Source: Chrysochromulina tobinii (Eukaryota). From it: a DNA stretch of 32,094 nt. Below, piece after piece: positions 17 through 24,544 of the stretch (within the stretch, counting starts at the first letter, position 1; every line of letters begins with the position of its first letter). The DNA lies in contig JWZX01001440.1 of assembly GCA_001275005.1 (NCBI GenBank), forward strand, positions 1-32,094. Reading direction: 5' to 3'. The notes beneath the pieces are model-generated. The model was not told the DNA's origin, did not search any database, and was given only the letters and a program-made list of their open reading frames with translations. The position numbers and the translations under genes were made by a program.

Positions 17-54
<38 letters not shown>

Positions 55-2047
55 TCCCGCGGCCCGCAGAGTACACTCCGAGCTCGGCGAGGCGCATCCG
101 GAGGTTGAGGAGCCCAGGATCGTTCTCCTTGGCGGCGGCGGCGGCGGCCGCGGCGGAGGCGGCGTTGGAGGGGGCGGCGGCGGCGTCTTCCTTCTTCTTG
201 TCGCCTGTGTTCAGAGGGAGGCCGAGGCTGAGCTTGAGTCGGGCCATCGACTCCTCAAGCGTCACTGGTGGGTAGCCGCCCTCCGACCCGACGTACTTCG
301 AGAGCGCGGCGTGCGGGTGCGATTGCGAGTACAGCCCACGTCGGTGAGTCTCCTTGGAGGGCGGGAGCGCGCCCGCCGAGCTGTTCCTGCCGCCCGATGC
401 CGCGTCGTCAGGAGCACTCGTCAGCAGCCAGCGCGCGTGCTCGATCGCGGGCTCGGCCGCCGCGGCATCGCGCGTCGCGTCGTCGACGGCCCTGGTGAGG
501 CGTAACGACGCGAGACGCGCCTCCTGCGCTTCGGACGGCTGCGCTTCGAGGAGTGCCCCGAGCATGTCGACGTCACCTGCCTTGGCGGCACTGCTGATCA
601 GAGTGCTCCGATCGGACGCACTCTCACTCAGCAGCTTCTTGAGCGTCGCCGCGTCCGCGCGCCTCGCAGCGAGACCGATGGCCTCCACCCGGCGCAGCGA
701 GGCGGAGTCGTCCTCCGAGCGAGACGCCCCGGCGGACTGCGCCCTGACGGGCGGCACGCCGAGGTGCCCAGCGACGACCACTTGAGGCGCCATATCGTCG
801 TCGGGCGCGCCGTAGGAAGTGGCGGCCGGCGCGGCGGCTGGCTGCGGGGCCCCGGCGCGCGCCTTGGCTGCCGCAGCCTCTTCAGAGGTGAGCTCAGTCA
901 CCACCTGCACCAGACCGCCGTCCGCCGGTGCGACCTTCTTCCTCTCCTCCTCCTTTTTCTGATCGGTCGCCTTCTTGTCAGCCTCCTTCTTGTCCTCCGT
1001 CTTCTTGTCCTTCTTCTCCGCCGTCTTTGCCGCGGCTGACTTCTCGTCGGATGTGAGCTCGGTCAGCCAGTCTGGCCGCCCACCTGGCGCGCCGAGTCCG
1101 GAGAGCACGGGCGCGGCAGGCGCCGACAGCCACACGGCCATCGTTCGGCCGCTGCTGCCGCTGCCGCTCGCTGAGCCGCTCTTGCCGGCGCCGCCGCCGC
1201 CACCGGCGCCGCCGATGCCGCCGATGCCGCTAGCTGTGCCGCTCTTGCCGTTACCAGCACTGCCGCCGCTGCCAGCACTGCAGCCGCTGCCGCTTGCGCC
1301 GAGGAGCTCCGCATGCAAATGATAGGCGCTCGGCACCGAGCCACTCGCGGACGGCTTGTCGGTGCCAATCTTGAGCCAGCTCAATGTCGCATGGTCGCCT
1401 CGCGCCTTGGCCCAGGCTTCGACGTTCGCGTCGCGCAGGTCCTCGAGGAGCTTCTGCTCGCGACGGCGCGCGGCGAGCTCGACGAGCGCGGGCACGGCAT
1501 GCGCGAGCGCCGGCTGTGTCAGGTGGCCCTCGGTCAGCACGCGATCATACTCAGGGTGCATGGCAGCGACGATATCATGGTCGCCCGCGAGCAGGGCCGC
1601 CTCGAGGCGCGCGCCGACGCAGACGCGCAGCTTCTTCTCAATCTCTGCGGGCTGCTTGGGCGGGTCCGGCTTCTTTGCGATTGGTGGAGGCTTCTTCGGC
1701 TCCTCCGGCTCGAACAGCCGCTCCGGACCGCTGGGCGGTGCGAGATCGAGCCGCGCGAGCGGAGTCGTGCGAGAGAGAGCGCGGGAAGAGGATGCGGAGA
1801 CCGCGTCGGCCAGTGCGATCAACCGCGTGACGAGCACGTTGAGACCGCGCTGTGCCGCGAGGCCGACCAGCTCCGCGGGCACGTGGTCGATCGAGGTCGC
1901 CACTGCGGGCTCCCGTCCCTCGCGCCACTCAGGGTCGAGCGTCCTTACTAGCTCGCCGTCTCCTTGGGCGGCTGCAGCTGCAGCGAGTGCCTGCAGCTCT
2001 GCTTGCAGCCGTCGCCGTGGCCCGTCCGACGAGCCGAGGCCGAGCAT
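1..2047 (-). CDS. Hypothetical protein, 3'-partial (>=682 aa; runs off window start); Gly/Ser-, Lys/Glu- and Ala-rich tracts, possibly one ankyrin-like helix pair
   Basis: Absent from the ORF track because no stop lies in the window. Minus-strand frame from ATG 2047 (MLGLGSSDGPRRRLQAELQ..., in-frame TAG upstream) reads open to base 1, e.g. ...EEPKKPPPIAKKPDPPKQPAEIEKKLRV..., ...STLISSAAKAGDVDMLGALLEAQP..., ending in GAGAGA. The + ORFs at 15, 354, 975 and 1356 share one frame and are its antisense shadow. Confidence 0.75.
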
Positions 2048-2415
2048 CGCGGGGGTCTGCCACCAGTCGCGACGGGTGGCGCCGATTCGCTATTCATACC
2101 GGTACTTTCATGGAGCGTTGTGGCGGGCGCGCACGTCAGTGGCCGACTTTCTATTATGAAGTGGGTTCTTTCACTTTCGTACCAAAGCACTCGTCGATCG
2201 GGTTTCTAGACAAATTTGTCACTGTTCACAGCATGCCACCTCTACCGCCTCAGAAGGACTTGGACGAAACTCACGTTCACGATCACGTCTATTGGCCGTC
2301 TCGGCAAGACGCACAACCACCGGACTTGGACAATTGTCCCTACGTACCTTTTTGAAGTTAACGAACCTGGTACCGTACAGTCCGGACTACACTCCACGCG
2401 GCGCTACCGAGTCCG

Positions 2416-3255
2416 CTACGAGTGCTTGATCAAGGCTTCGCACGGCTTGAGATCGCCATCGCCGTCGAGCTTGGCCACGTCCCCATATGCCGGATAGTAC
2501 CTGTCGAACCAAGCCTTGGCCTCGTCATACGAGTCAAAGTCGGCGCAGTCCTTGACATCGCCAGGGTTGGCCTCGAAAGCCGCCACCTCCTTTGCCTCAC
2601 GCGCCGTGCTACGTTGCTGTTGCTGGAGCTTTGCCGAAGCTGTCTTCGTGGATGCAGGGCGCTGGTTTGCATTCGGGCCAAACCCTTTGCCTGCTGTGCT
2701 GCTGCTGCCGCCGCTGCTGCCGCTGCTGCCGCCGCTGCTGCCGGCATCAAAGCACGCGCCCCAAAGCCCAAGGCTCTCCGACTTGGCCTCGGCCTGTAGA
2801 CGGTTGAACATCTCCTGATTCCGGATGTTGGGCTTGTAGGCCTTCGCGCGTGCATAGCCTTTGCGAACCAGAAGCTCGTTGATCGACTCACCATCTTTGT
2901 ACAGGTACACGAGGCTGCGGCCAAACCGATCGAGTGGCTCCACGTCGGTGTCAAACTCCACCTCCGTGCCCGCCGGAAGAAGCCGCTTCATCTCTGCCGA
3001 TGCTTCCGGTCCAAAACACTGTGGAGGCTCCCCACGCTCTCGCTGGGCCGGAGAGACCGTCTCTGGCGTGTTGATTCCAAGCAGGCGGGCTCTTCCGAGC
3101 TTTTCTAGTATCACTGTGTCGCCGTCCACAACCCGCTCAATGTAATCCGTCTGCATAGACCATGAAGCTTGCGGTGACCATGCGATCGTCGCTGCGCCGA
3201 TGATCGCAATCAGCGTGCGCTGTGCGACATCGTTGAACAGCCCATTAACGCGCAT
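2416..3255 (-). CDS. Thermonuclease (staphylococcal nuclease, SNase family) with C-terminal Excalibur-type Ca-binding domain and N-terminal hydrophobic targeting segment
   Basis: SNase motifs VVDGDT, ARLLGINTPET, FGPEAS, DRFGRSLVYLY, INELLVRKGYA, EAKSESLGLW; Gly/Ser linker; C-terminal DCADFDSYDEAKAWF...LDGDGDLKPCE. First ATG at 3255; the frame is open to 3375 and an upstream exon is possible, so the start is uncertain. Confidence 0.9.
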   Translation of the reverse strand: MRVNGLFNDVAQRTLIAIIGAATIAWSPQASWSMQTDYIERVVDGDTVILEKLGRARLLGINTPETVSPAQRERGEPPQCFGPEASAEMKRLLPAGTEVEFDTDVEPLDRFGRSLVYLYKDGESINELLVRKGYARAKAYKPNIRNQEMFNRLQAEAKSESLGLWGACFDAGSSGGSSGSSGGSSSTAGKGFGPNANQRPASTKTASAKLQQQQRSTAREAKEVAAFEANPGDVKDCADFDSYDEAKAWFDRYYPAYGDVAKLDGDGDLKPCEALIKHS

Positions 3256-4160
3256 TGCACTCGGGGCAGCCTGGCACTGGATCGGCGCTCCTCTGGTGTC
3301 TCTGGTAGTCGTCGATCCGTGCTGGAGGTCCGACACATCGGTGATACAATCTCGATTCCGGGTGCACAATCTCAAAGGTCACAAACACAATCACGCGTGT
3401 GGAGACTCTTACAGTCCCCCTCTCCCGTGCACCATTACACGCAAGTTGTGATTTTGTGTGTGCGAATGTGTGTGCGAATGTGAATGTGTGACTGTGTGAC
3501 TTCTAAACACGCACAAGGGACACAGGGCCGACGTTCCACGTTCGGTAAGACAGATTGAAATTTCAATTTGTGACGGTGCACCGTGCTCAGTAAGGATCTA
3601 GTAGGAACGCCCTGAGAGTGGACAATAGCTTCCGCGACCGTGTCTGATGAGAAGCACCAGGACAGCGGGTATAAAAGTACCTCAAATAGGTCAATTAGCA
3701 GTGTCATCTTGGATCTAGATCGATCCCATGCGCCGGAATGATGATGCATGATCATTCCGCTCGCTGCAGGAGATTGTGAAGCGAGGTCGGGCACACGCCG
3801 CTCGACCGCGCCGCGCTCGGGCACCCGGCATCCCCGCATACATGCACGGCACACCGCGTCGACACCGTCGCCCGATGCGATCGGATGCGCGCACACCCGA
3901 TCCACAGTACACACATCCCGCGCAAATCGAGTGCGGCCCTCACCCCACGGAGACCGTTCACGTTCACGTACAGTTAGCCCTCACGGCTACTAACTATAAT
4001 AGTACGAGTAGAAGCACAACCGCTGGCCCCGTGGATGCGTGGAGACGCTCACCAGACGGACGTCCGAGTGGCACACTCCTTCCGCCTATCTTGATAACGG
4101 CCGCTCATGCGGTGCGCGCCTGCTCCGTAAGCTATGCCAACTGCGACCAAGCTTCGCCAC

Positions 4161-4943
4161 TTAGTTGTCCTCGGCCTCGGATGTGCTCCCCTTGGCTGCC
4201 CTTGGCCGCCTGGCCGCCTTTTGCTTGTCTGCTGCCGCCGCCTTCTGCGCCTCGTCCGCCTTTTGCTCGGCCGCTGCCGCCGCCTTGTACGCCTCCGTCT
4301 TCTCTTGCTTGGCTGTTGCCGCCTCCTTCTGCGCCTCATCCGCCTTTTGCTTGGCCGCTGCCGCCTCCTTCTGCGCCTCCGTCTTCTCTTGCTTGGCTGC
4401 TGCCGCCTCCTTCTGCGCCTCCGTCTTCTCTTGCTTGGCTGCTGCCGCCTCCTTCTGCGCCTCGTCCACCTTTTGCTCGGCCGCTGCCGCCTCCTTCTGC
4501 GCCGCCTTCTGAGCATGGATCGCCCCAGCCGTCAAATTCTGGAGAATGGCCACCTCATTGGTCGACATTGCCAGCGCCAACTCCAGATCGATCCTTTTGT
4601 CGAATGCTTGCTTGAGCTCCTTCTGGGCAATGATCTTCCCCATTCGCATCTGAATCTCTTGAACGGCCATCTGAATCTCTTGAACGGCGTTGGGATTCGA
4701 GGCGACCATCGAGGTCGCGAGCACCAGGGAGCCCAAGACGACAAGCAGGATGCCGATGCAAGATTTGCTTCTGGAAGGCGCACCAACGCCGACATTCTGC
4801 TGCTCAGGGACCGGTTTAGCCGGCACTTTGTCCGCTTCGCCGTCGGTCGGGGGCGGCGCAACGCGTGATCGGACTTTCGAAGCACCGTCAGATTTGGGTG
4901 ACGACCGTGGCGGCGACTTGCTGCGTGAATGGGGCCCAGCCAT
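4161..4943 (-). CDS. Single-pass membrane protein with Ala/Lys/Glu/Gln coiled-coil stalk of 14-aa repeats (~260 aa)
   Basis: ATG 4943 (MAGPHSRSKSPP); hydrophobic CIGILLVVLGSLVLATSMVA; 6-7 copies of EAQKEAAAAKQEKT-like units. Confidence 0.7.
   Translation of the reverse strand: MAGPHSRSKSPPRSSPKSDGASKVRSRVAPPPTDGEADKVPAKPVPEQQNVGVGAPSRSKSCIGILLVVLGSLVLATSMVASNPNAVQEIQMAVQEIQMRMGKIIAQKELKQAFDKRIDLELALAMSTNEVAILQNLTAGAIHAQKAAQKEAAAAEQKVDEAQKEAAAAKQEKTEAQKEAAAAKQEKTEAQKEAAAAKQKADEAQKEAATAKQEKTEAYKAAAAAEQKADEAQKAAAADKQKAARRPRAAKGSTSEAEDN
4205..4510 (-). repeat. Coding tandem repeat, 42-bp period
   Basis: Repeated gcctccttctgcgcctccgtcttctcttgcttggctgctgcc-like units encoding the 14-aa repeat. 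Confidence 0.9.
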
Positions 4944-5482
4944 TGTGTGGGACACGCGAGCGAGGAGTCGATTGCACGATGAAACCCGGCCCAGAGGGGC
5001 CTTTTTTGACAAATTTGGGACAAACTCATGTAACGTCAATTTGCATCTCGGAAGACGATTCTTTGTCAATTTTGGGTTTCGAATAGGAAACTAGGCGCAG
5101 GATGCGCAGGAACTCTCACCCCCACTGCTAGCCTCGAGAGCACATTCGATAGGCTTCCGTTAGGTTGTCTGTTGTTTATGTAGTAACTGAACGCAGGAAG
5201 ACTCTCCACTCTCGATCACGCAGTCGTGAGCACTCTCCGCCTTACGAGCAATGAACCGTCTCGAACTTATGTCTCGCTCGCTTGTCCCTGCGGCTCTTCC
5301 AAGGGTCGTCTTCCCACAGACCGACGGAAGCAGTCGTCCATAGCCATTAATATTGGAGTGTCCTGTTTGGGGAGTTCCTCATCCGTGGGTTGGACACTCA
5401 TCACACCCCGGTGAGAACTGTGAACGCTCAGGCCTTAGACGAGGCGCGAGCGCGCGCGCGCGAGCGAGCGAGCGAGCGAGCG

Positions 5483-7255
5483 ATGCTCATCCCAATCATA
5501 GGCTTCTCGCCCTCGGGCGAACCGCTGCTCGGCGACCAGGGCTTCGAGGTGGCGGATGTGCCATCCTTCGAGATTGTGCGCCGCCTTGGCGTCGCGTCAC
5601 CGCTTGTGCTCTGCCTGCCGGCTGAGCTGCTCAAGGCGCCGCCGTCGGAGGCAATCTGCGAGTTGATGCGCGAGACGACGACGGTCGTCGGCCCATTTGC
5701 GCTCGAGCGTGCAGACGAGGCGCGCGAGTGGCTGAGCATGGGCGCGCACTACGCCCTCTTCCTGCCGCCGGCCAATCTCGGTATCGGAGCTGAGTGTCCT
5801 CCGGCGGCCAAGCCGCTGGCCGAGGTCGTGAGGGCCGCGGCGGCTGAGGTGGCGATCCCGGCAGAGCGCATGATGCTGCTCGTCGACGTGCCGGCGCTCG
5901 AAAATGCGGCCGCGCTCGCGCGCTTCCAGGCCGACATCGAGTCCCTCGCGGCGCCTGCGGGCTCCGGCTGCTACGAGTGCTGCAAAAAGGAGACGTGTGG
6001 CGCCGTGTCTGGCGTGTGCGTGGTCGTGCCGCCGGGCACCTCGGAGAAGATCGAGGCGGATCTGCTCGGCGTTCTAGGCCCGCTCGCCGCGCGCGATCGG
6101 CTCCAGGTGTTCCTGGGCGGACTCTCGATGCTCACCTCGAGCGCGCAGCCAAGCTCGGTCGGGCACCTGCACCACTCGTTCGCAATCCACGCCCTCGGCG
6201 CCGCGACGCTCGCGGAGGAGGCAAACGTCGCGACGCCCGCGGGAGGCTTCGTCGGTGCGCCGCCCGTCGCCGTCGTCGAGCTGCCCGCCGCCGCTGCCTC
6301 GTTGTACGCCCTCTTCGCCGCCCCGGCGCTCGAGCTCGGCCCGGCGGTGGCCGCGTGCGTGCGCACTGACCGCTCGGATGGGTTGTTCCCGACACTTGTG
6401 CTCGAGGCGGACGGCGCGGCGCTCGGGCTGGTCTACTCGTCGACCCAGTCGATCGGAGCCGCGCTGCGCTGCGGTCGTGGAGTCTACTGGTCTCGCTCTC
6501 GCTCCTCGCTCTGGCGAAAAGGAGACACCTCGGGCGCGTGGCAGACGCTGCGTCGCATCCAACTGGACTGCGACGCGGACGCGCTCTGCTTCACAGTGAC
6601 GCAGCACGGCATCCCGCCCGCCTTCTGCCACAAGACGAGCCTCTCTTGTTGGGGACAGCCGACTGGCCTGCATGCGCTGCAGCTCACGCTCTTCGCGCGC
6701 AAGGCCTCGGCGCCGCCCGGCTCGTACACCAAGCGGCTCTTCGATGACGCGACGCTGCTCCGCAACAAACTCGTCGAGGAAGCGCAGGAGCTAGCGGAGG
6801 CCACCGAGCCCGACCACGTTGCCGCCGAAGCGGCGGACCTGATCTACTTCGCGATGGTGCGCTGCGTCGCGGCGGGCGTCGGCCTCCCGCAGATCTCGTC
6901 TCATCTCGATCGGCGCGCCCTCAAGCTCGAGCGCCGTCCTGGGCACTCGAAGGCGAGCCGCATTGCCGCCGGCGACGCCATCCTGAGCGAAGCCAAGGGC
7001 AAAGCTGGCGCCGCCCCCGCGAGCACGGGCGCTCTCGTGGGCGCGAGCACGGGCGCGGGGCGGGCGCGATGGCTGCCCGTGATCGCCTTCGGGGTGTACG
7101 CCCTCTACTTCGCGCCCGGCACGACGCTTGCCCTCGGGCAGGTGGGCCAGGCGGCGGCGGCGGCGGCGGCCAGCAAGGCAACGGCGGCGACCAACACGGT
7201 GGCGGCGGCGGCGGCGGCGGTGGCCAGCGCGGTGAGCCGCCGTCGTGGGCAGTAA
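5483..7255 (+). CDS. hisIE: Bifunctional phosphoribosyl-AMP cyclohydrolase / phosphoribosyl-ATP pyrophosphatase (HisI-HisE) with degenerate HisA-like N-terminal region, fungal His4/His7 style, without HisD
   Basis: HisI motifs DRSDGLFPTLV, LGLVYSS, GVYWSRSRSSLWRKGDTSG, DCDADAL, FCH-x5-CW; HisE motifs SYTKRLF, KLVEEAQEL, EAADLIYFAMV. ATG 5483 follows a (GCGA)n tract. Confidence 0.92.
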   Translation: MLIPIIGFSPSGEPLLGDQGFEVADVPSFEIVRRLGVASPLVLCLPAELLKAPPSEAICELMRETTTVVGPFALERADEAREWLSMGAHYALFLPPANLGIGAECPPAAKPLAEVVRAAAAEVAIPAERMMLLVDVPALENAAALARFQADIESLAAPAGSGCYECCKKETCGAVSGVCVVVPPGTSEKIEADLLGVLGPLAARDRLQVFLGGLSMLTSSAQPSSVGHLHHSFAIHALGAATLAEEANVATPAGGFVGAPPVAVVELPAAAASLYALFAAPALELGPAVAACVRTDRSDGLFPTLVLEADGAALGLVYSSTQSIGAALRCGRGVYWSRSRSSLWRKGDTSGAWQTLRRIQLDCDADALCFTVTQHGIPPAFCHKTSLSCWGQPTGLHALQLTLFARKASAPPGSYTKRLFDDATLLRNKLVEEAQELAEATEPDHVAAEAADLIYFAMVRCVAAGVGLPQISSHLDRRALKLERRPGHSKASRIAAGDAILSEAKGKAGAAPASTGALVGASTGAGRARWLPVIAFGVYALYFAPGTTLALGQVGQAAAAAAASKATAATNTVAAAAAAVASAVSRRRGQ

Positions 7256-7262
7256 GACGAGG

Positions 7263-7386
7263 GCGCAGCCCCCGGAAGCCACGAGATCAGCACCTCGCTC
7301 GCCGAGATCGCTTCTCGCGCAGCCCCGTGGCCACGGAGGCCACGAGATCGTATCTCGCGCACCGGGATCGCATCTCGCGCAGCCCC
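7263..7386 (+). repeat. Imperfect ~60-bp tandem duplication with CGAGATCG..TCTCG micro-hairpins downstream of hisIE
   Basis: gccacgagatc...gatcgc(t/a)tctcgcgcagcccc occurs twice about 60 bp apart. Confidence 0.6.
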
Positions 7387-7921
7387 CCAGGAGGAGCGGG
7401 CACGCATGTTATGGCGTCGGCCGGTAAGCGGAGGCGGCGACGCCACGGGATGGCGTCGAGGGACACGCATGCAAGTGCTCACCACGGCATCGCGCATGGC
7501 GTCGAGGGACACGCAGGGACGTGGGGCGACTTTGCTTGGGAGGGCGTCTGGAGTGTGCGCGCCCCAGGAATCAGGCCCCCCTTCCCTGGCCGGCTGACTC
7601 ACGTGGTAGAGCGCAGCCCGGGTGTGGATGGTATCCTGTAGACCTTTGGTGTCGTACCTGTAGACCTTTGGTCAGCTATGGACAAGGAGTTATGTTGTCC
7701 AAAACGCAACCCAAAAGAGCGTTCTTCTTCTTGTGCGCGCCGTGCCAGCCCGCCGCAGCCCCGCAACAGGTTTTTCTTGACGTGCGTCAGGACCACGCGC
7801 AATCGCCAACGACAGTTCGACAGTCCGAAGAACCGGAAGGCGCGTCTTGACGATTGAACCAGCGAATAAAGAGGGTCTATAGAACGGCATGCAGTCGATT
7901 CACAGGAAAGTCGCGGGATCA

Positions 7922-9286
7922 ATGGCGCCTCGCGCGAGCAAGAGGCTCGCGTGGCCGTGTCTTGCTGGCGTGGGAGTCTTGCTGGCGTGGCTCGCATACC
8001 TTCCGAGGCCTCATGTTTCTGATTGGCTGATGGAGCTGCTGCTGCTCTTCGACCGCTGCCCGCCGGTCCATCTCCGGCGGGCGATCGCAGTGCTCGCCGT
8101 TGGCGACAATTACACTTCGGCCATCACTCATACCGTGGAGCCTGCGCACCAGCCACTCTATCCGCCGTGGCGACCTCTGCTGGCCGTTGAGCTCAAACGG
8201 AGCGCGGAGGACACAGTGATCTTTGACGCAGCAGGGCGCGAGCTTCATTGCTTAGCGTCCGTACCGCTCGGCACCGGCACCGGCAACGGCGTGTACGTGT
8301 ACGTCGCGCCGGCCGGGACGCTGTGGCAATGGCCAGCGGAGCACGTCGGCTTCGCTCGAGCGGCACGACTGCCTCCACTCCGCTTTGACGCGGATCGGCC
8401 GGAGGGCACATGGGAGGCAGGCCCTGGGAGCCCGCTGCCCGCTCTAGCATCGACGACGTCGCCCGCGGCTCTGCTGCCACCGACGACGGCACGGATACCG
8501 TGATGCTGCAGACCCTTCTCGACGTCGCCGCCGATCTTTCGTGCGCCTGGGCTGCTCACGGAGGCAGCCATGGATGCTCTGCTCGCGGCTGCGGCGCCCG
8601 GCCTCGCCAGGTCAACTGTGGGAGATCCGACGCAGACGCAAGCTCCGTATCGGCAGGTGGACGAGCGTCGCACCTCCCTCTCCGCGTGGATACACGGTTA
8701 CAATGACCCTCGCCACTCGCACTCGGTGGCCCGCGCGGTGCAGCGCCGTGTCGCCGCGCTGCTCGCTCTGCCCTCGGAGCGGCTGTGGCGCGGCATCGAG
8801 CCCCTCCTCGCCGTAGAGTACCCGGAAGGCACCTTCTACGAGCCGCATTTCGACTTTTTTGGTGGCGGCGGCGGCTCCGACAAGCTAAGCGAGCCCGCGT
8901 TCACGCCGCCACACGGCTCCAATCGTTTCGCCACGGTGATCGTGTACCTCACTAGCGCGGGCGAGCCTGGAGACGGCGGGTTCGTCAACGGCCACACCGT
9001 CTTCCCCTTTGCTGGGTTCGTCAACGGCTCCGACAGCCTCGATGGGGTCGCGTTCGCGGGCGCCGTACCGGGCGCACCCGCGTGCAGCTTCCCCGCGCCT
9101 TCGACGCCCAAGGCGGCGCGAGGCATGCTCGTCCAGCCGCGCCGAGGCGACGCGATCCTCTTTTATGACCAACGGCCAGACGGTAGCCTCGACGGCCGCG
9201 CCAGGCACGGATCGTGCCCCGTGGTGCGCGGGACCAAGCGAGTGATCAACGTGTGGGCTTGGAACCGAGACGTTATCTATCGATGA
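7922..9286 (+). CDS. Prolyl 4-hydroxylase (2OG-Fe(II) oxygenase) with N-terminal membrane anchor; frame interrupted at ~8445-8518
   Basis: ORFs 7889-8503 and 8570-9286 are in the same frame, separated by one TGA (8501-8503). P4H motifs: STSPPIF...GLARSTV, FYEPHFDFF (HxD), NRFATVIVYL, GHTVFP, VQPRRGDAILFY, HGSCPVVRGTK. N-terminal LAWPCLAGVGVLLAWLAYL. Confidence 0.85.
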
Positions 9287-9333
9287 ACTGAGAGTAAGCG
9301 AGCAATCCACGTGTGGGCTTGGAACCGAGACGT
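9236..9333 (+). repeat. 60-bp-period duplication of the P4H 3' coding end into the 3' flank
   Basis: aagcgagtgatcaacgtgtgggcttggaaccgagacgt (9236) vs aagcgagcaatccacgtgtgggcttggaaccgagacgt (9296). Confidence 0.85.
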
Positions 9334-9682
9334 GAGATCGTATCGCGATGAAGCCGTGAGCGCGCGCGAAAACGCGCATGCGTGGCGCTGGGCCTCTCCG
9401 ATCGGGGAGACGGATCCGCTGGGCGCATTGAGTGCGTGGGAGGGACTCACTGTAGGTCTCTACAAGTGTGCCCGGCTTCTTTAGATGCACGTCCATGATC
9501 GATACTCGTGGATACATGTCCACCTAGGTTGTACACACGCGCTCTGAATCTCTCGCAGCAATCGAACCCCAAAATGAAAATGCAACCTTAGCGAGTGTCA
9601 CCCACAGCAGCCTCGCTCGCATCCTACTGTCTCTCCCGCTATGATGGCACTGAGACTCCGCCATCTGAATGAACCAACTCTA

Positions 9683-10054
9683 TCAATTGTCGAGTCCTCT
9701 GTGTGCCGCTTGCCGCCAATCAATCTTCGCCTCCTCTTCTGCTTGTGCAGACTCCGCAGCATGATGATCCTCGCACGCAGCTTTGGCTTTGGCTTCTGCC
9801 ACGCCCTCGCGCAGCTCGAGAAGGCGGCGCACGTCATCTACGTTCCGTGTGAGCTCCCGGATTCCGGGAAGCTCAGATGCTAAGCTCACATGCAGCCGGG
9901 CTGGAGCTGGACTGGTCGGAGTGTTCTGCATCAGATGACGCGTCGACACGACCTTCCCCATCACATTGCCCTGTGGTATCAAAGACATCCTCGGGGTGAA
10001 TGCAGGCGGTGTTGCTACGAGCAGCGCTGCAAAAGGAGTCAGTAGCAGCCGCAT
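9683..10054 (-). CDS. Small hypothetical protein (123 aa) with signal or bipartite plastid-type leader and short coiled coil
   Basis: MRLLLTPFAALLVATPPAF leader, then a Ser/Thr/Arg-rich stretch, then helical VDDVRRLLELREGVAEAKAKAA. No family recognised. Confidence 0.5.
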   Translation of the reverse strand: MRLLLTPFAALLVATPPAFTPRMSLIPQGNVMGKVVSTRHLMQNTPTSPAPARLHVSLASELPGIRELTRNVDDVRRLLELREGVAEAKAKAACEDHHAAESAQAEEEAKIDWRQAAHRGLDN

Positions 10055-10323
10055 CGTCGAGCTGGTGATCGTCGTGCAGGCCGCGGTGGCGTCCCGAAAG
10101 CGAGTGCGCTGGATGGAGAGAAGGCGTGGAAGAATTCTCAGTCTAACCTCAAAACATCTCGTGCCGCGAGATCGATCGTGAACAGTGTGGGCTCAAACCC
10201 TCCGGAAACTCGAAAACCCCAAGGTAATCGTGCGCGCGCGGCGCAATCTGCCTAAGTAGCCCGTCCCCCATCCCCCCGAGCCCGGTGTGTGCCAGCCATC
10301 CACTCCACTCCTCCTCGGTCTCT

Positions 10324-13313
10324 TCACAGCTCTTCTTCCTCCGTCTCCTGATCAGTCACACGCCCGTCGTCCTCGGGCGCGTCGACTTCCGCATCGGGAA
10401 GGCTCGCCGCCGCAGCCTCTGCCCGGTCTGAGAGCTGCTTGACCAGCGCTGGCGGGAAGGCGGTGGACTCGTACAGGATAGAGTGGCGCCTCTTGAGCAC
10501 GCCGGGCTGGTGCGTCGCCTGCCATCAAGAGCCATCAAGAGCCATCAAGAGCCATCAAGAGCCATCAAGAGCCATCAAGAGGCCATCAAGAGCTATCAAG
10601 AGCCATCAAGAGGCCATCAAGGTGGCGCACCTGGTCCGCCTTCTGGTAGCTCGCGCAGATGGTCGCCCAATCCAGATCCAAGCGCGGCCCGACGTAGACA
10701 GGGAACCGAGGATAACCGTTCTCCATCAGCTCGGTGAATCGGTAGGTCACGACCGAGCCGACGGGCGGTGGGCTCTTTCGGTCGTGATCGGTCAGACCCG
10801 AGCCGCATGAGAACTGGCGTCCGTCGGGCGTCTCGAGCGTGAGTGCACCTGTGCGGAAGGCAATCCGTTGCAATCAGTAGGAATCAGTTGCGATCAGCGG
10901 GCGTCTCGAGCGTGAGTGCACCTGTGCGGAATGAATTCTTGCCCGCGCCGCCCTCGTGACCCACCACCTTGGCCTCCTCATCCTTCTGACTTTTCACCTG
11001 GGGTCATCAAGCAAAATCAAGCGCAATCAACATCGATCGAATGCGATCAATGGCACTCAAGCGCACTCGAGCGCAATCAAGCGCAATGAAGAGCTCTAAT
11101 CACCTTGAGCAGTGCTTGCTCAATGCTCATACTGCAATCCAGTGCAATCAAGTGCACTCAAGCGCACTCAAGCGCACTCACCTTGAGCAGGTGCTTGCTC
11201 CGGCAGTGCTCATACTGCAATCCAGTGCACTCAAGTGCACTCAAGCGCACTCAAGCGCACTCACCTTGAGCAGGTGCTTGCTCCGGCAGTGCTCATACTT
11301 GGAGCCGGGCCGACGAAGCATCAGCCCCTCGCCCCCACAGGCCTCCACCTTCGCGAGCTCGGCGCTCACGTGCGCACGGCCGGTGCATGTGATCGCGCCG
11401 ACGGGCGCAGCGTATGGCGTGCCAACAGCGGGAATCGATGAACTGCTCGTGCCCGCGACGGCGCCGGTCGAGTGGCTTGTACCGGCCCCGCCGCCGCTGA
11501 CGGTTGATGCTGATGCTGATGCTGATGCTGATGCTGATGCTGGTGCTGCGATGGCAGGGGCAGGGGCGGGTGCTGCTGCGATGGCGGGGGAGGGGATGGG
11601 TTGGATGCAAGACTGTATGAACTTGAGCCGCTCCTCGTATGGCTTGTCGAGCGCAGGGGCATCGAAGACGAGGTACGTGACGTACTGCGCCCGAGATAAG
11701 GTCGGATGCAGTCAGAGGCAACATCTTCCAATCATCAGAGGTCCTCAGAGACAATGCAGTGGCCCTTAGTGGCACTCGGAAGCAATCATCAGCAATCAGT
11801 GGCAATCAGTGGCAATCAGTGGCCCTTAGTGGCACTCGGAAGCAATCATCGGCAATCACGGCTGCTCTCTCACCTGCCACAGGTCACCCGAGGAGGCGGA
11901 GCGAACAATGGAGAGGCAGCGACGGAACTGATGGCGTCCCGCCCACAGCTCGCCATCGAGGGGAGTCGAGGGCAGCCCTAGCTTGAACCACGCGGGCGCC
12001 GGAAACGCATTCCCATTACGCGAGTAGAAGTTGGTGCCGTCCCAATACCTGAAGAGTGAGGCAATCAGAGGTCATCGGAGGTCTCGTCAGAGGTCTCGTC
12101 AGAGTTCGATCTCGCCCCAGTACGCGCGCACGCCGTCGAGCTTCTCGGAGATCAGCCACCCAGTCGGATCCACCTTTTTCGCATCGTACTTGTCGGCGAG
12201 CATGACCTGAGTGGCCTCCGCGGCCGAGGCAGCGTTTGCGAGGACTTGCACCACCGGACCAGACCCTTTGGCTGCTAGGAGCGTAGCATGCATCGCGGCT
12301 CCTGGAGTCACCGGCCCGCCCGCCGCGGCGGCGCTTGCCGCCCAGATCGCCGCTGCCTTCGAGGGCGAGCCCTTGTGTGCCTTGGACGCGCCCGCAGGCT
12401 GTACAGGCAGATTGGCAGGGTCGATGAGGAGATAGGGCGTCACGTCAGGTGGAGCACCGAGGCGTACGGCCTCCTGCACGAAGCCCTCACTCACGACGAG
12501 CGTACCTGTGGGGAAGAGGGGCGCCGTGATGAGCACTTGCATGCAAGGCCTCCTCGGCAGAGCGTTGCGACCCTCAGTCACGACGAGCGTACCCTTGCGC
12601 ATGGCCTCGAGCACCTTGTTCGTCGGGTTGTCTGCCTCGGCGGCCGTCGTGATGAGGTGAGTCGTGTCGCGTGTCACGCCCTGCATGTTGACGGTGGCAC
12701 CTTGCGAGCGCAGCCATGCCCAGAACTGCTTGCGCACCATGGACATTTGGCCCGAGACGCACACCACCATCGAGCCCAAAGGCTTTCCGTGCGGCGGAGG
12801 AGGCAACGGTGCGGGCGGCAACGGTGCGGGCGGCAACGGTGCGGGCGGCAACGGTGCGAGCGGCAACGGTGCGGGCGGCAACGGTGCGGGCGGCACCGGC
12901 GCGGCCGCAGGAGGAGCAAGAACAGGATGAGGCGGCGGTGCTGGATGCGACGACGGCGCAGCTGCTGCGCACGATGCGTGGCTGTACGGGCACTTATCGC
13001 CATCCTTGCAGTATCCCTTGGCAAAGTGCTTGCAATGAACGGTCGCTGCACGCGGCTTCTTCGCGGGAGGCATTGCCGCTGCTGCGGGTGCCTGCTTCTG
13101 CCCCGTCAGCTGCTGGCGTCGCACAGAGCGGATGGTACCTGTCGATGTGTTTGTCTGCTTCATGTCCTGTAAGTCGATCATGTAGGTGCTGCCGGCCGCA
13201 TCGACTCTGACCGACTTCTCGCCGCGAAAGTGGGCTGCTTCCAGATGAGCGTTGTGCCCGCTGTCAAAGTTCTTCCACTTACCGTCGCTCAGCTCATATG
13301 CCCACTGCGCCAT
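10324..13313 (-). CDS. Minimal ATP-dependent DNA ligase fused to N-terminal WWE, CCCH zinc finger, Pro-rich linker and BRCT domains (7 exons, ~728 aa)
   Basis: Hand-spliced exons 13313-12593, 12505-12124, 12048-11874, 11684-11265, 10997-10922, 10848-10631, 10518-10324 (2187 nt, all GT-AG, phases consistent). WWE: QWAYE..GKWKNFD..LEAAH..YMIDLQDMKQTN..TIRSVRR. CCCH: CKHFAKGYCKDGDKCPYSH. BRCT: VVCVSG..GATV..VTRDTTHLI..KGTLVVSEGFV. Ligase motifs: SEKLDGVR (I), SRNG, LDGELW (III), YLVFDAP (IIIa), EGLMLR (IV), LLKVK (V), PRFPVY (VI). Confidence 0.92.
10519..10630 (-). repeat. Ligase intron 6, made almost entirely of a 10-bp tandem repeat (sense TTGATGGCTC)
   Basis: About 10 copies of gccatcaaga between CAG|GTGCGC donor and TGGCAG|GCG acceptor. 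Confidence 0.9.
10849..10921 (-). other. Ligase intron 5 (73 nt), bracketed by an exact 34-bp duplication spanning AG|GT
   Basis: cgggcgtctcgagcgtgagtgcacctgtgcggaa at 10825-10858 and 10898-10931; CTGAT-type filler between the copies. Confidence 0.9.
10998..11264 (-). other. Ligase intron 4 (267 nt): TTGA(G/T)TGCGC 10-mers plus duplicated copies of the exon 4 end and donor
   Basis: 83-bp unit in tandem (11134-11216 and 11217-11299), third degenerate copy at 11100-11133; AGGTGA at both junctions. Confidence 0.85.
11685..11873 (-). other. Ligase intron 3 (189 nt) with CTGATTGCCA 10-mers and an internal 60-bp-period duplication
   Basis: CAG|GTGAG donor, CGCAG|TAC acceptor; cagtggcccttagtggcactcggaagcaatcatc at 11757 and 11817. 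Confidence 0.85.
12049..12123 (-). other. Ligase intron 2 (75 nt)
   Basis: Starts GTACTGGG while the next exon starts GTATTGGG (7/8 match); splicing restores KLDGVRAYWDG. Confidence 0.85.
12506..12592 (-). other. Ligase intron 1 (87 nt, in-frame and stop-free, hidden inside ORF 12099-13313)
   Basis: Its first 22 nt duplicate the first 22 nt of the next exon (1 mismatch), giving GTLVVTEG...GTLVVSEG in the unspliced ORF; it ends GCATGCAAGTGCTCATCACGGCGCCCCTCTTCCCCACAG. Confidence 0.85.
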
Positions 13314-13561
13314 CCTTTTTGCTTGGTGATAGCGCGCCCGAGGGACCTTTACATGTCGTGCTTGGCAAGAGCGCTCGCAAAGAGTTGAAACCCGGAATCG
13401 CGCGAAGAACCAAGCCCCTGCATCAAGCGCTCAATCTTTGATAACCCCGGAGAATGCACACGTTTCGCAGAAATCCGAGCTTCATCTCCCCAAATCGCCG
13501 ACACCGCCGCGTTCGTCGCCTCGCCTTACGCATCCGTCCGGCTGAACCGCCCTCTGAGAGA

Positions 13562-14495
13562 ATGTCAGGCCGTGCCAAGGCACTCTCGGGGCGCAACACA
13601 ATGAGCTCGCTACCAGGCGGCATCTTCGCAAAGCCTCCCGAGTATGATGGCCAGCAGATCCTTGCACAGAAGCAGGCGATCGAAGGTCAGGTCAACGGTC
13701 GGTACAACACCTCGTCCATCGCCGGCGGCATCTTTGCTGCCGGCCAAGGCTCACCCGCCGCCGAGGGACTCTTTGCGGCTGGCGGAGCTCGACTGTCACA
13801 CACTGCTATGGGTGCCGGAGCACGGCCTCAGAGCGCGGCGGGGCGCCCCTATGTCAACGAGTCCTCGGTCTCCGGAGGCATCTTCGAGCGGGACGAAGCC
13901 CCGTCGGCGCCATACCCTGGTAAGCGTCTGTTTCCTCCCACCTCGGACCCGTCAGTGCCCACCAACTTCAGACCGCGCGATCCTGGTCCTATTCTCGGCG
14001 GCGGTGGCCATCGGCAAGCGTGGGCTACCCCTGATGCCGCGGGCGGCCGTTCCAGCAACGCTCACCAGCTCCAGAGCGTACCGATGCGTGGCAACCTGCA
14101 CGGCAGACAGACGCAGCCAAGCTCGGGCGACGGGGCGTTCGCTCGATTTCTGAGCGAACACAGCGGCAACGGTAGCAGTGCGAGCGCCCCAAGCAGCGAG
14201 CTCTTCGAGCGAGCGCCGTATCGGGCGTCGTCCTCGGACCGCTCGCTAGCTCAGAACGACGCCTTCCTTGAGGCGGTCTCGGCCGCCGAGGAGCGCGACG
14301 AGGAGGATCTGCAGACGCTGGCGCAGCTGCGTGAGCTCGCCGAGCAGGAGGAGATCATCGAAGCTGCAGCCGCTCAGTTGGCGTTCGAGCAGCAGCTCGG
14401 GCCTGCGGAACAGGAAGCCCTGCGGATGGCGATGCTCGAGCGCGTGCGACACAAAGCTCGGACACTGCAGCAGCAGATGATGCAAAATCAGATGC

Positions 14496-15186: not shown

Positions 15187-15280
15187 AGCATGCGCGAGGA
15201 CGAATCACTCAGAGGGCCAAGCGCCCAGAGACGGTGTGTCAAGCTTTTGTCGGATGTTTGATGTTGTGAACGGCAGTTGA
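15187..15280 (+). repeat. Left copy of ~95-bp direct repeat
   Basis: agcatgcgcgagga...gcgcccagagacggtgtgtcaagcttt.gtcggatgtttga.gttgtgaacg...gcagttga; matches 18149-18246 with a 27-bp identical core. Confidence 0.92.
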
Positions 15281-15436
15281 TCGGTCATCATCTTTCAAGT
15301 TTCAACTTACATACTTACTTGAGCGCGGGGGGACCGCGACGAAACTGACTGATTTGCTGCATCAACTTACGATCAGGATCCGGCGGCAAGAGCAAGACGC
15401 TCACCCACAAGGTGTGGGCGCTCGGCCTCACGGTAC

Positions 15437-17335
15437 ATGTTGGGGACCGCCGTGCTACACGATGGCCTCGCGATGCGTCCTCCCATGGGATTCAATTCTT
15501 ACATAGGGCCATCCGGTGGTTTCGTCTGCGTCCCATCCTACGCCACGCCTCTTGCAAAGCCGCCACCCATGGCGCTGAACGATCAAGGATCCTCTGAACT
15601 AAATCATCTCTGCCCTGAAGGCCAGCTGCCTCATCCCACAGCTTACAAGGCGCTCAAGAACCCACCCCCCGGCTGGTCGACCGTCGGCGCGGCTCAAAAC
15701 ACAACCGACACTGCTCCTCCGCACTACTTGTACAATTCGGCCTTCCAAAATTTTGGGAACGGCGTCTCCAGCGTGAACGGCTCCGTCGTCGTCTCTCAGC
15801 CGATCCTCGAGCCCGACGGCTCTTTGAGCGGCGCGCACTCCCTTGCCGAGATTGCCGTGCAGTCCGCCGATCTGCTTCAAATCGTCGAGGTTGGATGGAT
15901 TGTGGGCTATCAAGGTCAGTATCTCGGGCCAAGCCCGACGCTCTTCGTGTTCCACTGGGTCGACGGCGTGGAAACCTGTTACAACGGCTGCGGCTGGGTG
16001 CAAGTCTCCACGACCAGAGTGCCAGGCATGACTCTGGATCCCTCCTCCGCACCTCGCGAGCTCGGCATTCGGTACTTCGAGGGCAATTGGTGGGTCCTCT
16101 TCGACGGCGAGTACATCGGGTACTTCCCTGGCTCACTCTGGGCCGGGGTGCAGCCCAAGTTTGACAGTGCGCATGTGGCCCAGTGGTTTGGGGAGGTGGT
16201 GTCAGAGAAATTGATCAAACCGACGACGCAGATGGGTAACGGCATATTCGGCGACCAGGCAGGTGCATGCCATTGGAGCCACTTGTCTTACTCGCAAGGA
16301 GACAAAACCCATTGGGCAAACCCACAATATGATGTGACCGACCCGACGCTCTATAACATCGGTCATAAAGGCGTCGATCACGGGTATGCATTCGGTGGCC
16401 CGGGCTATGTGCCGCCAGCGCCGCCAGCGCCGCCAGCGCCGCCAGCATCGCCTCCGTCTCCGCCAGCGCCACCAGCGTCGCCTCCGCCTCCGGGCCACGG
16501 GTGCCACGCGGCGTACGCACCAATCGAGCCTGCAGGGATCGCGCTCGGCTGGTTTTTGACGATTGCCACGCTGCTTGCGCCATCGCCGCAATACGTGGCT
16601 CTGTGCCGAAGCCGCAGCTCACATGGCATCTCGCTGCTCACGCCATTGCTCAACCTGGTATACGGCGTGCTCAACTTATGCAGTGCCATCCTCACCAAGT
16701 GGCCCTCCATTCAGCGCTGTGGCGATTCGTCGTTAGCGGGTGCATTTGAAGCTGATGGCTGCGTGGATCAGCTCCTCGACGTGTGGCAAGTCGCGATCAG
16801 CGCGCTCGGCCTCTCTGTCATCTTGGCCTTGGTGGTGCTCTTCCCGCCGCACAACTTTGCCAAGGAGCGTGCGCTCGTTGTCGTCACGCTTTGTTGCCTC
16901 GCCCTGACCATATTTGCCGCGTGCTACCTCAGCGCTCTCAGCCCGTGCTCGGAGGCGAGCCACACGCTGTCGCAGACCTTTGCAGTGCTCTCCGCCCTGA
17001 TCGTCGTCGTGGCCTTCGCGCCGCAGCTGTACGAGACATGGAGGACAAGGGGAGCTGGCTCCCTCTCGAGCCTCTACTACCTTATCCAATCGATAGGCAC
17101 CGCTCTCGTGGTGGTCCTGCAGCTTGTCGCGCTGCGCGACTCGATCCTCGTGTGGGGTCCGAACTCAATCTCAATGGCCGTGCAGGGCGGCATCTTCTCG
17201 ATGCTCTGCTACTACCGCCGCTGTGCGGGCCGTCGCAGCGGAGGTACCACGGGCGCCGATCCGCTGCTCGTCGTGCAGGAGTCCGCGCAGGCCGCCGCCG
17301 CGGTAAACGTTGGGCGATGGGCGCCGCTGACGTGA
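15437..17335 (+). CDS. Fusion protein: neprosin-family glutamic peptidase + Pro-rich linker + PQ-loop 7TM transporter (632 aa), with a GH27-like N-terminal fragment
   Basis: One stop-free ORF. Neprosin: CPEGQLP (pro-peptide end), HSLAEIAV, QIVEVGW, PTLFVFHW, CYNGCGWVQVS, GNWWV..EYIGYFPGSLW, AQWFGEV, TQMGNG, FGGPG. PQ-loop: LAPSPQY..RSRSSHGISL and AFAPQLYETWRTRGAGSLS, with about 7 hydrophobic segments. Confidence 0.88.
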   Translation: MLGTAVLHDGLAMRPPMGFNSYIGPSGGFVCVPSYATPLAKPPPMALNDQGSSELNHLCPEGQLPHPTAYKALKNPPPGWSTVGAAQNTTDTAPPHYLYNSAFQNFGNGVSSVNGSVVVSQPILEPDGSLSGAHSLAEIAVQSADLLQIVEVGWIVGYQGQYLGPSPTLFVFHWVDGVETCYNGCGWVQVSTTRVPGMTLDPSSAPRELGIRYFEGNWWVLFDGEYIGYFPGSLWAGVQPKFDSAHVAQWFGEVVSEKLIKPTTQMGNGIFGDQAGACHWSHLSYSQGDKTHWANPQYDVTDPTLYNIGHKGVDHGYAFGGPGYVPPAPPAPPAPPASPPSPPAPPASPPPPGHGCHAAYAPIEPAGIALGWFLTIATLLAPSPQYVALCRSRSSHGISLLTPLLNLVYGVLNLCSAILTKWPSIQRCGDSSLAGAFEADGCVDQLLDVWQVAISALGLSVILALVVLFPPHNFAKERALVVVTLCCLALTIFAACYLSALSPCSEASHTLSQTFAVLSALIVVVAFAPQLYETWRTRGAGSLSSLYYLIQSIGTALVVVLQLVALRDSILVWGPNSISMAVQGGIFSMLCYYRRCAGRRSGGTTGADPLLVVQESAQAAAAVNVGRWAPLT

Positions 17336-18148
17336 CCCCACGCCTACAGCTGTACCCGGCTACGGTACCCGCTGGACCGAACCGCAAAGATGAGAGGTGT
17401 GTAAGAATTTGCACCGACACCGACACGTTCACACACGCGCTCATACCATGGTGGGTTCGGCACAGAAGCACAGGGGCGGGATTAGAAGGGCGAAAGGCCC
17501 ATCGCGAGCTTAAAGCTCATGGCGGGGGTGGCGAAAAGGACCGTGGTCGTGTCTGCCATGACGATGGCGGAGGAAATAGGATGTGTGGTGGTGCGCGAGG
17601 AATGTTTGGGGGGAGGATGGCGACAGGCCTTAGGCCCTTAGCGGTGTGTACTGCAGATCCGGTCGGGTGTGACATCGTAGTCTGATTGTTGTCTGATTGT
17701 TGTCTGAGCCCCGGCCTATACGTCGAAATACGTAACGAAACCTATCGACTAACCTATACTTTTCAACCATTCAACGGCTAAACGTCATGCTAAACGTGCA
17801 CGCAATGTCACCACCCTTCCCCACAGGGGGAGAGTGGGACCACCCTCGTCCCTCCTCTACGGGGGCGGCCACGACGTCCGCAACACCCGCCATACAACAG
17901 CAAAAGAAACGAAACCTCCCAACCCACCCCCCGTCGGGAAAGCGGGGTTCGAGGTGTGGGTTCTTACTAAGGGGGGTCTAGTTAGTGTGCGCCACTGCAC
18001 AGACCGTACCGTACCGTAGTACACGTCCATCCATTGCGGGGACGTATGTACGTCAGAACCTCGGGTGCGTGCGTGTTTTGGTATGGTCCGGTCACCAAAA
18101 GCAAACTTTCCTAAACGTGCACGCAACCTTATCCATACCAGCATAAAT

Positions 18149-24129: not shown

Positions 24130-24544
24130 GAGGTGTGGGGTGACGGCGGCTGGATGTGTCGCATCCGATCTGATCCACACGGGTCATGGCGCGCGCCGTT
24201 CTAGAGAGTCCTCGAGCAGTCGAATGATTCAGATTGACACGCATATGTTGACACAGGAACTTGTAAACTGCCTGTTAATTACTGGTACCACGTGCCCCAG
24301 GTATGGGGTACCACGCGAAAAATGCAATGCCAAATCCTGTCGTGTTAACGTTCACACACACGTTCACACCTCTTGCGGGGAGAAAAAACCGAGCTGAACT
24401 GTGTGTGGAGACCGCGCGCGTAAAACATGGGCCGCGTGCTCTTGAAGGAGCTCCGCAACGCGGCGCCGCGCGCGCCTTCCGACCGCCTTTCGACCGACAA
24501 CGTGCGACCACTGGTCCTCTGCAGGCTCTCACAGATAAATCCGA

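What the first reader, a model, noticed from the sequence alone, without database searches (positions are those of the whole stretch)
10519..12592. Introns that appear to form by variable-length exon duplication plus filler
Seen: the ligase introns carry direct repeats of adjoining exon sequence at their junctions: 34 bp exact (intron 5), 22 bp with 1 mismatch (intron 1), 8 bp with 1 mismatch (intron 2), AGGTGA (intron 4) and only 4 bp for introns 3 and 6, which could be plain splice consensus. In introns 1, 2 and 5 the duplication supplies the GT donor. Known: tandem duplication of an AG|GT proto-splice site is a long-proposed but rarely observed route to intron gain; DNA-transposon introners have short fixed TSDs and terminal inverted repeats, which are not visible here. 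Inference: recent intron gain by staggered-break repair or target-primed insertion.
Basis: partly seen in the sequence, partly recalled or inferred. Interest (0 to 1): 0.8.

Follow-up and report, generated by a model that had tools for sequence, protein, structure and literature searches.

The report
Alga copies introns into duplicated targets
In the alga Chrysochromulina, many introns consist of a 15-45-base copy of the neighbouring exon plus a short piece shared with other introns, and two are missing from closely related gene copies, so new introns are likely still being made, probably when a staggered DNA break is patched with a copy of an existing intron.

Summary
All six ligase introns are spliced GT-AG in RNA contigs; intron 1 is in frame and often retained. 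The listed repeats are present, but only introns 1 (22 bp), 5 (34 bp) and 4 (a missed 35-bp copy of the upstream exon end) exceed chance. The fillers are high-copy intron pieces. At other loci, 68 of 97 introns with intron 1's filler begin with a copy of the downstream exon (null 0.3%); copies are about 16-47 bp long. Two such introns are absent from alleles 97-98% identical; one has a perfect 33-bp duplication and a filler 47/48 identical to an intron 0.5 kb downstream. Fillers resemble same-locus introns more than chance (13 vs 1.05 expected), and unspliceable copies persist mostly as in-frame inserts (15 of 26). Best reading: splicing-blind templated insertion at staggered breaks, filtered by selection (0.55); rival: target-primed reverse transcription of intron RNA (0.25). 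It fails the tests for a TIR, fixed-TSD Introner. Species C. tobinii.

The parts
10324..13313 (-). Host gene: WWE-CCCH-BRCT-ATP-dependent DNA ligase, 7 exons, 728 aa
12506..12592 (-). Intron 1, 87 nt, in frame without stop; spliced in some runs, retained in others
12571..12592 (-). Intron 1 5' part: copy of the first 22 nt of the downstream exon (12484-12505), 1 mismatch; supplies the GT donor. A further 8-nt match (12547-12554 to 12468-12475) may extend the copy to about 38 nt
12506..12544 (-). Intron 1 3' part: high-copy filler module (12520-12544) plus pyrimidine tract and AG acceptor
12049..12123 (-). Intron 2, 75 nt; decamer filler ending in a variant of the second acceptor module; 8-bp junction match not above chance
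11685..11873 (-). Intron 3, 189 nt; decamer array whose interior differs in allele L068; 4-bp junction match only
10998..11264 (-). Intron 4, 267 nt, first donor used; nested exon-end duplications with decamer filler (83-bp unit x2.5)
11182..11216 (-). Exact 35-bp copy of the upstream exon end (11265-11299) inside intron 4; decayed third copy at about 11104-11134
10849..10921 (-). Intron 5, 73 nt: 34-bp exact duplication spanning AG|GT (copies 10898-10931 and 10825-10858) plus 39-nt decamer filler (10859-10897); the duplication supplies both splice sites
10519..10630 (-). Intron 6, 112 nt; almost pure decamer array; 4-bp junction match only
7450..7514 (+). Second copy of the intron-1 module in the window, without acceptor: 46-nt insert between 17-19-bp direct repeats (7450-7468, 7496-7514), about 200 nt past the end of the HisIE reading frame; no in-register splice sites

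Best explanation
These are spliceosomal introns built from a variable-length copy of the adjoining exon plus a fragment shared with other introns of the genome, and they likely arise when a staggered DNA break is repaired by copying part of an existing intron, often one in the same gene, after which selection would keep the insertions that splice out cleanly or stay in frame. Steps: (1) inferred: two nicks about 15-45 bp apart open a gap with complementary overhangs; (2) inferred: one end primes through 2-4 nt of microhomology on an existing intron (DNA or RNA, undecided) and copies about 25-60 nt of its pyrimidine-tract/AG end or its decamer repeats; (3) inferred: joining and fill-in leave the target duplicated round the insert; (4) shown in sequence: the duplication gives the GT donor (commonest), the AG acceptor, or both, so the spliced mRNA equals the empty allele; (5) shown for the six ligase introns: they are spliced; (6) inferred: repeated rounds or unequal exchange between the direct repeats give nested copies such as intron 4.
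For: Anchored duplications at 68 of 97 module sites, null 0.3% (36 of 133 unique sites dropped for lack of acceptor or flank); 104 of 182 with a fuzzy module, null 0.14%; 71 of 106 under strict de-duplication, median 27 bp, 5-95% 16-42, maximum 47. Second acceptor family 41 of 108, null 1.6%; decamer arrays 80 of 191, null 2.3%; both counts include some intron-internal tandem copies. Two presence/absence introns in 11 homologous locus pairs: L064 (81 nt = perfect 33-bp duplication + 48 nt) against empty L010/L032, and L020 (78 nt, 31-bp duplication, 2 mismatches) against empty L021; flanks 98.4% and 97.3% identical, empty sites in open frames. The L064 filler is 47/48 identical to the intron 524 bp downstream in its own allele and 48/48 to that intron in L010, with 2- and 4-nt junction microhomology. 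The best filler match lies in the same locus group for 13 sites (53 of 106 have such a partner), permutation mean 1.05, maximum 8 in 5000. Module copies without acceptor are also flanked by duplications (41 of 70, null 4.9%) and have ragged 3' ends; of the 26 with no in-register splice sites 15 are 3n long (p=0.009), several inside 3.5-4.5-kb open frames, 2 antisense. The closest homologue (P0004, 70% identical, from an 18.6-kb contig) runs through all six positions. Staggered 3' overhangs give tandem duplications experimentally (PMC8355091, passages).
Against: No enzyme or break was observed. Fillers come almost only from a few intron families, which a dedicated retro-element would explain as well (but I searched by these motifs, so other templates were invisible). 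Many best matches are in other loci, one of them 100% identical (L014/L114), and for L020 a cross-locus intron (0.89) fits better than its neighbour (0.83). Same-locus similarity could be later gene conversion. Duplication mismatch rate does not track module divergence (rho -0.03, p=0.79). i2, i3 and i6 show no significant duplication; i1-i3 are shared with L068. Introns at the other loci have no RNA check. Empty alleles could be precise losses. In the motif-free scan in-register GY..AG occurred at 135 of 228 repeats on the sense strand but at 75 of 228 on the antisense control. The 26 unspliceable inserts include adjacent pairs and are not all independent. P0004's DNA was not seen, so its lack of introns is inferred.
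Confidence: 0.55

Rival explanations
1. Target-primed reverse transcription: a non-LTR or Penelope-like reverse transcriptase nicks the target and copies spliced-intron RNA or pre-mRNA from its 3' end, giving 5'-truncated intron fragments with long variable target-site duplications (a SINE-like Introner).
For: Variable-length TSDs flank LINE and PLE insertions (PMC9977147 passages). Acceptor-bearing inserts end at the intron's AG, and a longer version with its own donor recurs. Neighbouring modules are mostly co-oriented (118 of 124 within 1 kb). A gene's own transcript would explain the cis bias.
Against: Unspliced copies have ragged 3' ends and no tail; in some introns the duplication supplies the acceptor and the filler is cut at its 3' side (16 of 135); 2 of 10 orientable in-frame inserts are antisense. 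The co-orientation is also what selection for splicing gives. No mobilising enzyme was looked for or found.
Confidence: 0.25
2. A non-autonomous DNA element of an unusual kind (Replitron-like HUH transposon) with fuzzy ends and variable TSDs makes the introns.
For: Replitron-1 makes variable-length TSDs and fuzzy ends, and one Replitron protein locus is reported in C. tobinii (PMC10288648 passages); identical fillers occur at unrelated loci.
Against: At least two unrelated filler families plus decamer arrays behave alike; no shared termini; strong same-locus bias; that paper saw no TSDs in other Replitron families.
Confidence: 0.1
3. The introns are old; local tandem duplication across exon-intron borders and gene conversion between introns later rebuilt their ends, and empty alleles are precise losses.
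For: Nested and polymorphic re-duplication at existing donors is real (intron 4; L071 against L031); intron interiors turn over fast (i3); direct repeats allow exact excision.
Against: In L064 the whole intron is duplication plus neighbour-identical filler with no older residue; the same structure occurs where there is no intron at all; the 70%-identical homologue appears uninterrupted.
Confidence: 0.07
4. Classical TIR/MITE Introner with a fixed 3-9-bp TSD, or an assembly artefact.
For: Chrysochromulina sp. MAGs have Introners with 4-bp TSDs and no TIR (PMC9860276); i2, i3, i4 and i6 have 4-8-bp junction matches.
Against: Duplications of 16-47 bp, variable; best terminal inverted match 4-7 of 10 nt; the structure recurs in many assemblies and is spliced in RNA.
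Confidence: 0.03

Closest known systems
Intron gain by staggered double-strand-break repair in Daphnia pulex (PMC4202315, passages; review PMC3443670, passages)
   Same: Polymorphic new introns with a direct repeat of the adjacent exon, and repeated rounds inside young introns.
   Different: Daphnia exon-intron repeats are 4-12 bp and most inserts have no known source; here 16-47 bp, the duplicate forms a large part of a 66-88-nt intron, and the insert is a traceable piece of another intron.
Introners that take one splice site from the TSD: Chrysochromulina sp. MAG family (4-bp TSD, no TIR; PMC9860276, passages and supplement rows); Symbiodinium and Polarella ILE classes 4/5 and 6/8/10 (4- and 8-nt TSD; bioRxiv 10.1101/2020.10.14.339549, passages)
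   Same: Multi-copy intron sequence, one splice site carried and one recruited from the duplication, mRNA unchanged.
   Different: There the TSD is fixed per class and 3-9 nt and the elements have defined ends; here the TSD is long and variable, both ends are ragged, several filler families act alike and there is a cis bias. The 2025 survey lists C. tobinii with 0 Introner families (PMC12130899 supplement row).
Tandem genomic duplication of an AGGT site (PMC3443670, passages)
   Same: Intron 5 gets both splice sites from a duplicated AG|GT.
   Different: A foreign filler of 25-60 nt brings the rest; most cases take only one site from the duplicate.
Intron transposition in Mycosphaerella and Oikopleura (table in PMC3443670; that copies are often in the same gene is recalled, not checked)
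   Same: New introns resemble existing ones.
   Different: Here only part of the donor intron is copied and a long target duplication accompanies it, which reverse splicing does not predict.
LINE/Penelope-like and Replitron insertions with variable TSDs in Chlamydomonas (PMC9977147, PMC10288648, passages)
   Same: Variable, sometimes long, target duplications; short truncated inserts.
   Different: No fixed end, tail or autonomous partner seen here; the passages read do not describe these elements making introns.

Membership tests
U2 spliceosomal intron | Removed from RNA with GT..AG ends | tested here: met
   6 of 6 skipped in RNA contigs; i1 also retained
U2 spliceosomal intron | Removal restores a conserved reading frame | tested here: met
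   728 aa, no gaps at the junctions against 15 homologues
Introner (general) | Sequence similarity among introns at unrelated loci | tested here: met
   182 distinct sites with module 1 and 108 with module 2 in 0.56 Mb of motif-selected loci; similarity covers only part of each intron
Introner (general) | Presence/absence between close alleles or species | tested here: met
   2 introns in 11 locus pairs; not for ligase i1-i3
Introner (general) | Element with defined ends and end-to-end similarity | tested here: not met
   5' ends vary; 3' ends vary in copies without acceptor
TIR DNA-transposon (MITE-type) Introner | Terminal inverted repeats | tested here: not met
   best 4-7 of 10 nt in the six introns
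TIR DNA-transposon (MITE-type) Introner | Fixed short TSD (3-9 bp) | tested here: not met
   16-47 bp, variable
Non-LTR / Penelope-like TPRT insertion | Variable-length TSD | tested here: met
Non-LTR / Penelope-like TPRT insertion | Fixed 3' end or tail with 5' truncation | tested here: inconclusive
   fixed at AG only in copies chosen for having an acceptor; ragged otherwise
Non-LTR / Penelope-like TPRT insertion | Autonomous RT partner in the genome | not testable with these tools
   no whole genome held
Staggered-DSB repair with templated insertion | Target duplication round the insert, with junction microhomology | tested here: met
   duplication; microhomology readable only for L064, where the template is apparent
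Staggered-DSB repair with templated insertion | Template biased to nearby sequence | tested here: met
   13 against 1.05 expected; conversion not excluded
Staggered-DSB repair with templated insertion | Dependence on repair enzymes (Pol theta, Ku, CST/Pol alpha) | not testable with these tools
   needs mutants or induced breaks
Pure tandem duplication of AGGT | Intron consists only of duplicated exon sequence | tested here: not met
   39-nt filler in i5, 65 nt beyond the 22-bp copy in i1

The most novel reading that the evidence does not exclude
C. tobinii multiplies its introns without a mobile element: existing introns, preferentially from the same gene or its transcript, serve as repair templates at staggered breaks, and this ongoing, splicing-blind process has built a large share of the genome's introns and also in-frame peptide inserts. 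It would be a genome-scale, population-polymorphic case of repair-driven intron gain with traceable source sequences, invisible to Introner screens.
Probability: 0.35. Interest if true: 0.92.

Novelty: new variant of a known kind. Interest (0 to 1): 0.8.

Why it matters
Where new spliceosomal introns come from is a long-standing question. Genome-scale gain has been credited to Introner transposons alone (stated in PMC12130899), and repair-born introns were few and mostly without a source. Here a culturable alga shows many young introns with empty alleles, source introns and failed (unspliced) siblings side by side, so rate, template choice and selection can be measured and the mechanism tested with induced paired nicks. 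It also shows a blind spot of whole-intron similarity screens: a large part of each intron is site-specific exon copy.

Tried and rejected
Filler motifs found nothing in viral contigs or genome contigs. Hidden duplications in i2, i3 and i6: not significant. Age test (duplication mismatches against module divergence): no correlation. Strand test on unspliced in-frame inserts: 8 same, 2 opposite, 5 without marker; too few to separate RNA from DNA templates. X17 shows a 60-nt skip inside i3: unit-number allele or contig artefact, not pursued. The 'culture-only' control (14 same-locus best hits, 42 of 69 sites with a partner, 1.41 expected) groups loci by record-name prefix, unverified. Literature: 10 full-text searches listed no paper describing long variable duplications at Chrysochromulina or haptophyte introns; the library lacks most subscription papers, two papers were not held, the 2022 supplement was stored cut and 2 of the 14 files of the 2025 supplement were not searched. 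Passages of PMC4580454 mention only about one intron per gene. That Emiliania introns are rich in 10-11-bp tandem repeats is recalled, not verified. PMC11282704 was read as passages. No paper was read whole.
Full report
Gene and organism. The region is a seven-exon gene on the - strand (13313-10324) for a WWE-CCCH-BRCT protein with an ATP-dependent DNA ligase domain. Its one full-length hit in a first search was a Prymnesium parvum protein, and a neighbouring histidine-biosynthesis gene clusters at 90% with a protein named from Chrysochromulina tobinii. Removing the six introns gives 728 aa with no stop and no alignment gap at any junction.

Splicing. RNA contigs of four runs skip all six introns with GT..AG ends: i2, i3 and i6 in 4 of 4, i4 in 3 of 4, i1 and i5 in 2 of 4. 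These are assembled contigs, not reads, and the runs may be of the same culture as the window. Intron 1 is 87 nt without an in-frame stop; in X13 and X15 it lies inside unbranched contigs at full depth while i6 is spliced in the same runs, so it is often retained and would add 29 residues in the BRCT domain.

The observation. Against background coding sequence only i1, i5 and i4 are above chance; i2, i3 and i6 are not. In i4 the significant repeat is not the 6-bp match but an exact 35-bp copy of the upstream exon end, part of an 83-bp unit present 2.5 times. No terminal inverted repeats were found.

The fillers are shared. Summed DNA contig depth rises from about 48 to 13,664, 7,747 and 42,389 in the bins holding the i1, i2 and i3 fillers (not a copy number, but a sign of many similar copies). 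Of 133 unique sites, 97 had an acceptor and enough flank; at 68 of them the intron starts with a copy of the downstream exon (score 10 or more; 0.3% in shuffled pairs), and 87 of 97 downstream exons begin with GT or GC. With a fuzzy module the count is 104 of 182 (null 0.14%); 42 of the 100 best copies are perfect and intron length is 66-88 nt (5-95%) with no 3n bias. Under strict de-duplication 71 of 106 have a copy, median 27 bp, maximum 47. A second acceptor family, to which i2 is similar, gives 41 of 108 (null 1.6%), and decamer arrays 80 of 191 (null 2.3%); both include some tandem copies inside introns. In a scan not anchored on motifs the duplication gave the donor in 69, both sites in 50 and the acceptor in 16 of 135 in-register cases among 228 repeats; the antisense control reached 75 of 228. 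None of these outside introns has RNA support here.

Recency. Of 11 homologous locus pairs compared, two differ by a whole intron: L064 has an 81-nt intron (perfect 33-bp duplication plus 48 nt) where L010 and L032 have one copy of the target, and L020 a 78-nt intron where L021 is empty; flanks are 98.4% and 97.3% identical and the empty sites are in open frames. A third pair (L071/L031) differs by a nested exon-end duplication at an existing donor, like i4. For the ligase itself, L068 carries i1-i3 unchanged in position; it ends before i4. The closest homologue (P0004, 70%; contigs of 18.6 and 12.9 kb) is uninterrupted across all six positions, which suggests but does not show empty sites. 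Direction is inferred: precise loss would also give an empty allele, but a perfect duplication and a near-identical source date the L064 intron as young either way.

Source of the filler. The L064 filler matches the intron 524 bp downstream in the same reading frame at 47 of 48 nt (48 of 48 in allele L010), with 2-nt and 4-nt microhomology at the junctions. Across 106 strict sites the best match lies in the same locus group 13 times (53 sites have such a partner) against 1.05 by permutation. Copying in trans also occurs: L014 and L114 are identical, and L020's best match is in another locus. The process is blind to splicing: 41 of 70 module copies without an acceptor have flanking duplications (null 4.9%), with ragged 3' ends; of the 26 that cannot be spliced in register, 15 are multiples of three (p=0.009), some within 3.5-4.5-kb open frames, and two are antisense. 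One such copy lies in the window at 7450-7514.

Mechanism. Shown: duplication plus intron-derived filler, splice sites recruited from the duplicate, splicing of the six ligase introns, polymorphism, cis bias, unspliced siblings. Inferred: a staggered break, microhomology-primed copying of an existing intron, fill-in, then selection (0.55). Breaks with 3' overhangs yield tandem duplications in mammalian cells (PMC8355091, passages), and Daphnia neointrons carry 4-12-bp exon repeats (PMC4202315, passages). The main rival is target-primed reverse transcription of intron RNA (0.25), since LINE and Penelope-like insertions have variable TSDs (PMC9977147, passages); ragged 3' ends and acceptor-from-duplicate cases speak against it, but do not exclude it. 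A Replitron-like element (0.10), remodelling of old introns (0.07) and a classical Introner or artefact (0.03) fit less well.

Comparison with what is known. It works like an Introner that co-opts a splice site from its TSD, but fails the tests for defined ends, TIRs and a fixed short TSD. Published Chrysochromulina Introners have 4-bp TSDs (PMC9860276), the dinoflagellate classes read about 3-8 nt (bioRxiv 10.1101/2020.10.14.339549, passages), and the 2025 survey lists C. tobinii with no Introner family (PMC12130899 supplement row). Ten full-text searches listed no description of this pattern, within the limits of the library. An earlier unchecked note of this scan (e1-2577349) reached a similar reading for another gene of this genome and favoured a short mobile sequence; it is not independent support, and the cis bias, ragged ends and in-frame siblings found here shift weight towards templated repair.

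Verdict. Observation confirmed, interpretation partly supported and extended to a genome-wide, apparently ongoing route of intron gain. New variant of a known kind; interest 0.8.

Noticed in passing
window 15280-18141 against L068 3300-3404: The L068 allele lacks about 2.9 kb holding the Neprosin/PQ-loop reading frame (15353-17335): a gene presence/absence difference.
   Followed up: no
window 30126-30342 (-): Likely 217-nt intron with GC donor and decamer array in an EF-hand gene; 5-bp junction match and an internal 21-bp duplication; no RNA check.
   Followed up: partly
window 22699-23979 (+): WD40 gene made of about 6.5 tandem 195-bp units, each apparently with its own intron: intron multiplication by domain duplication, a different route.
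   Followed up: no
L005 11748, L006 6444 and 6584, L008 10984, L067 1458 (positions on the module strand): Duplication-plus-module inserts of 3n length inside 3.5-4.5-kb open frames, predicted to add short peptides to proteins.
   Followed up: partly
L020/L021, intron beside the polymorphic one: A decamer array has grown inside the exon-derived copy, so decamer repeats can arise locally from exon sequence.
   Followed up: no
window 11757-11816: RNA contig of X17 skips one 60-bp unit within intron 3; the L068 allele has a different interior.
   Followed up: no
window 10324-13313: The ligase family (PF01068 + PF14743) has close relatives in bacteria, Mortierellales fungi, amoebae and a rotifer, a patchy distribution; a repair ligase with WWE and BRCT domains in a genome full of repair-like scars may be coincidence.
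   Followed up: no
window 24539-27979 (+): 1146-aa frame of decapeptide repeats and ankyrins.
   Followed up: no
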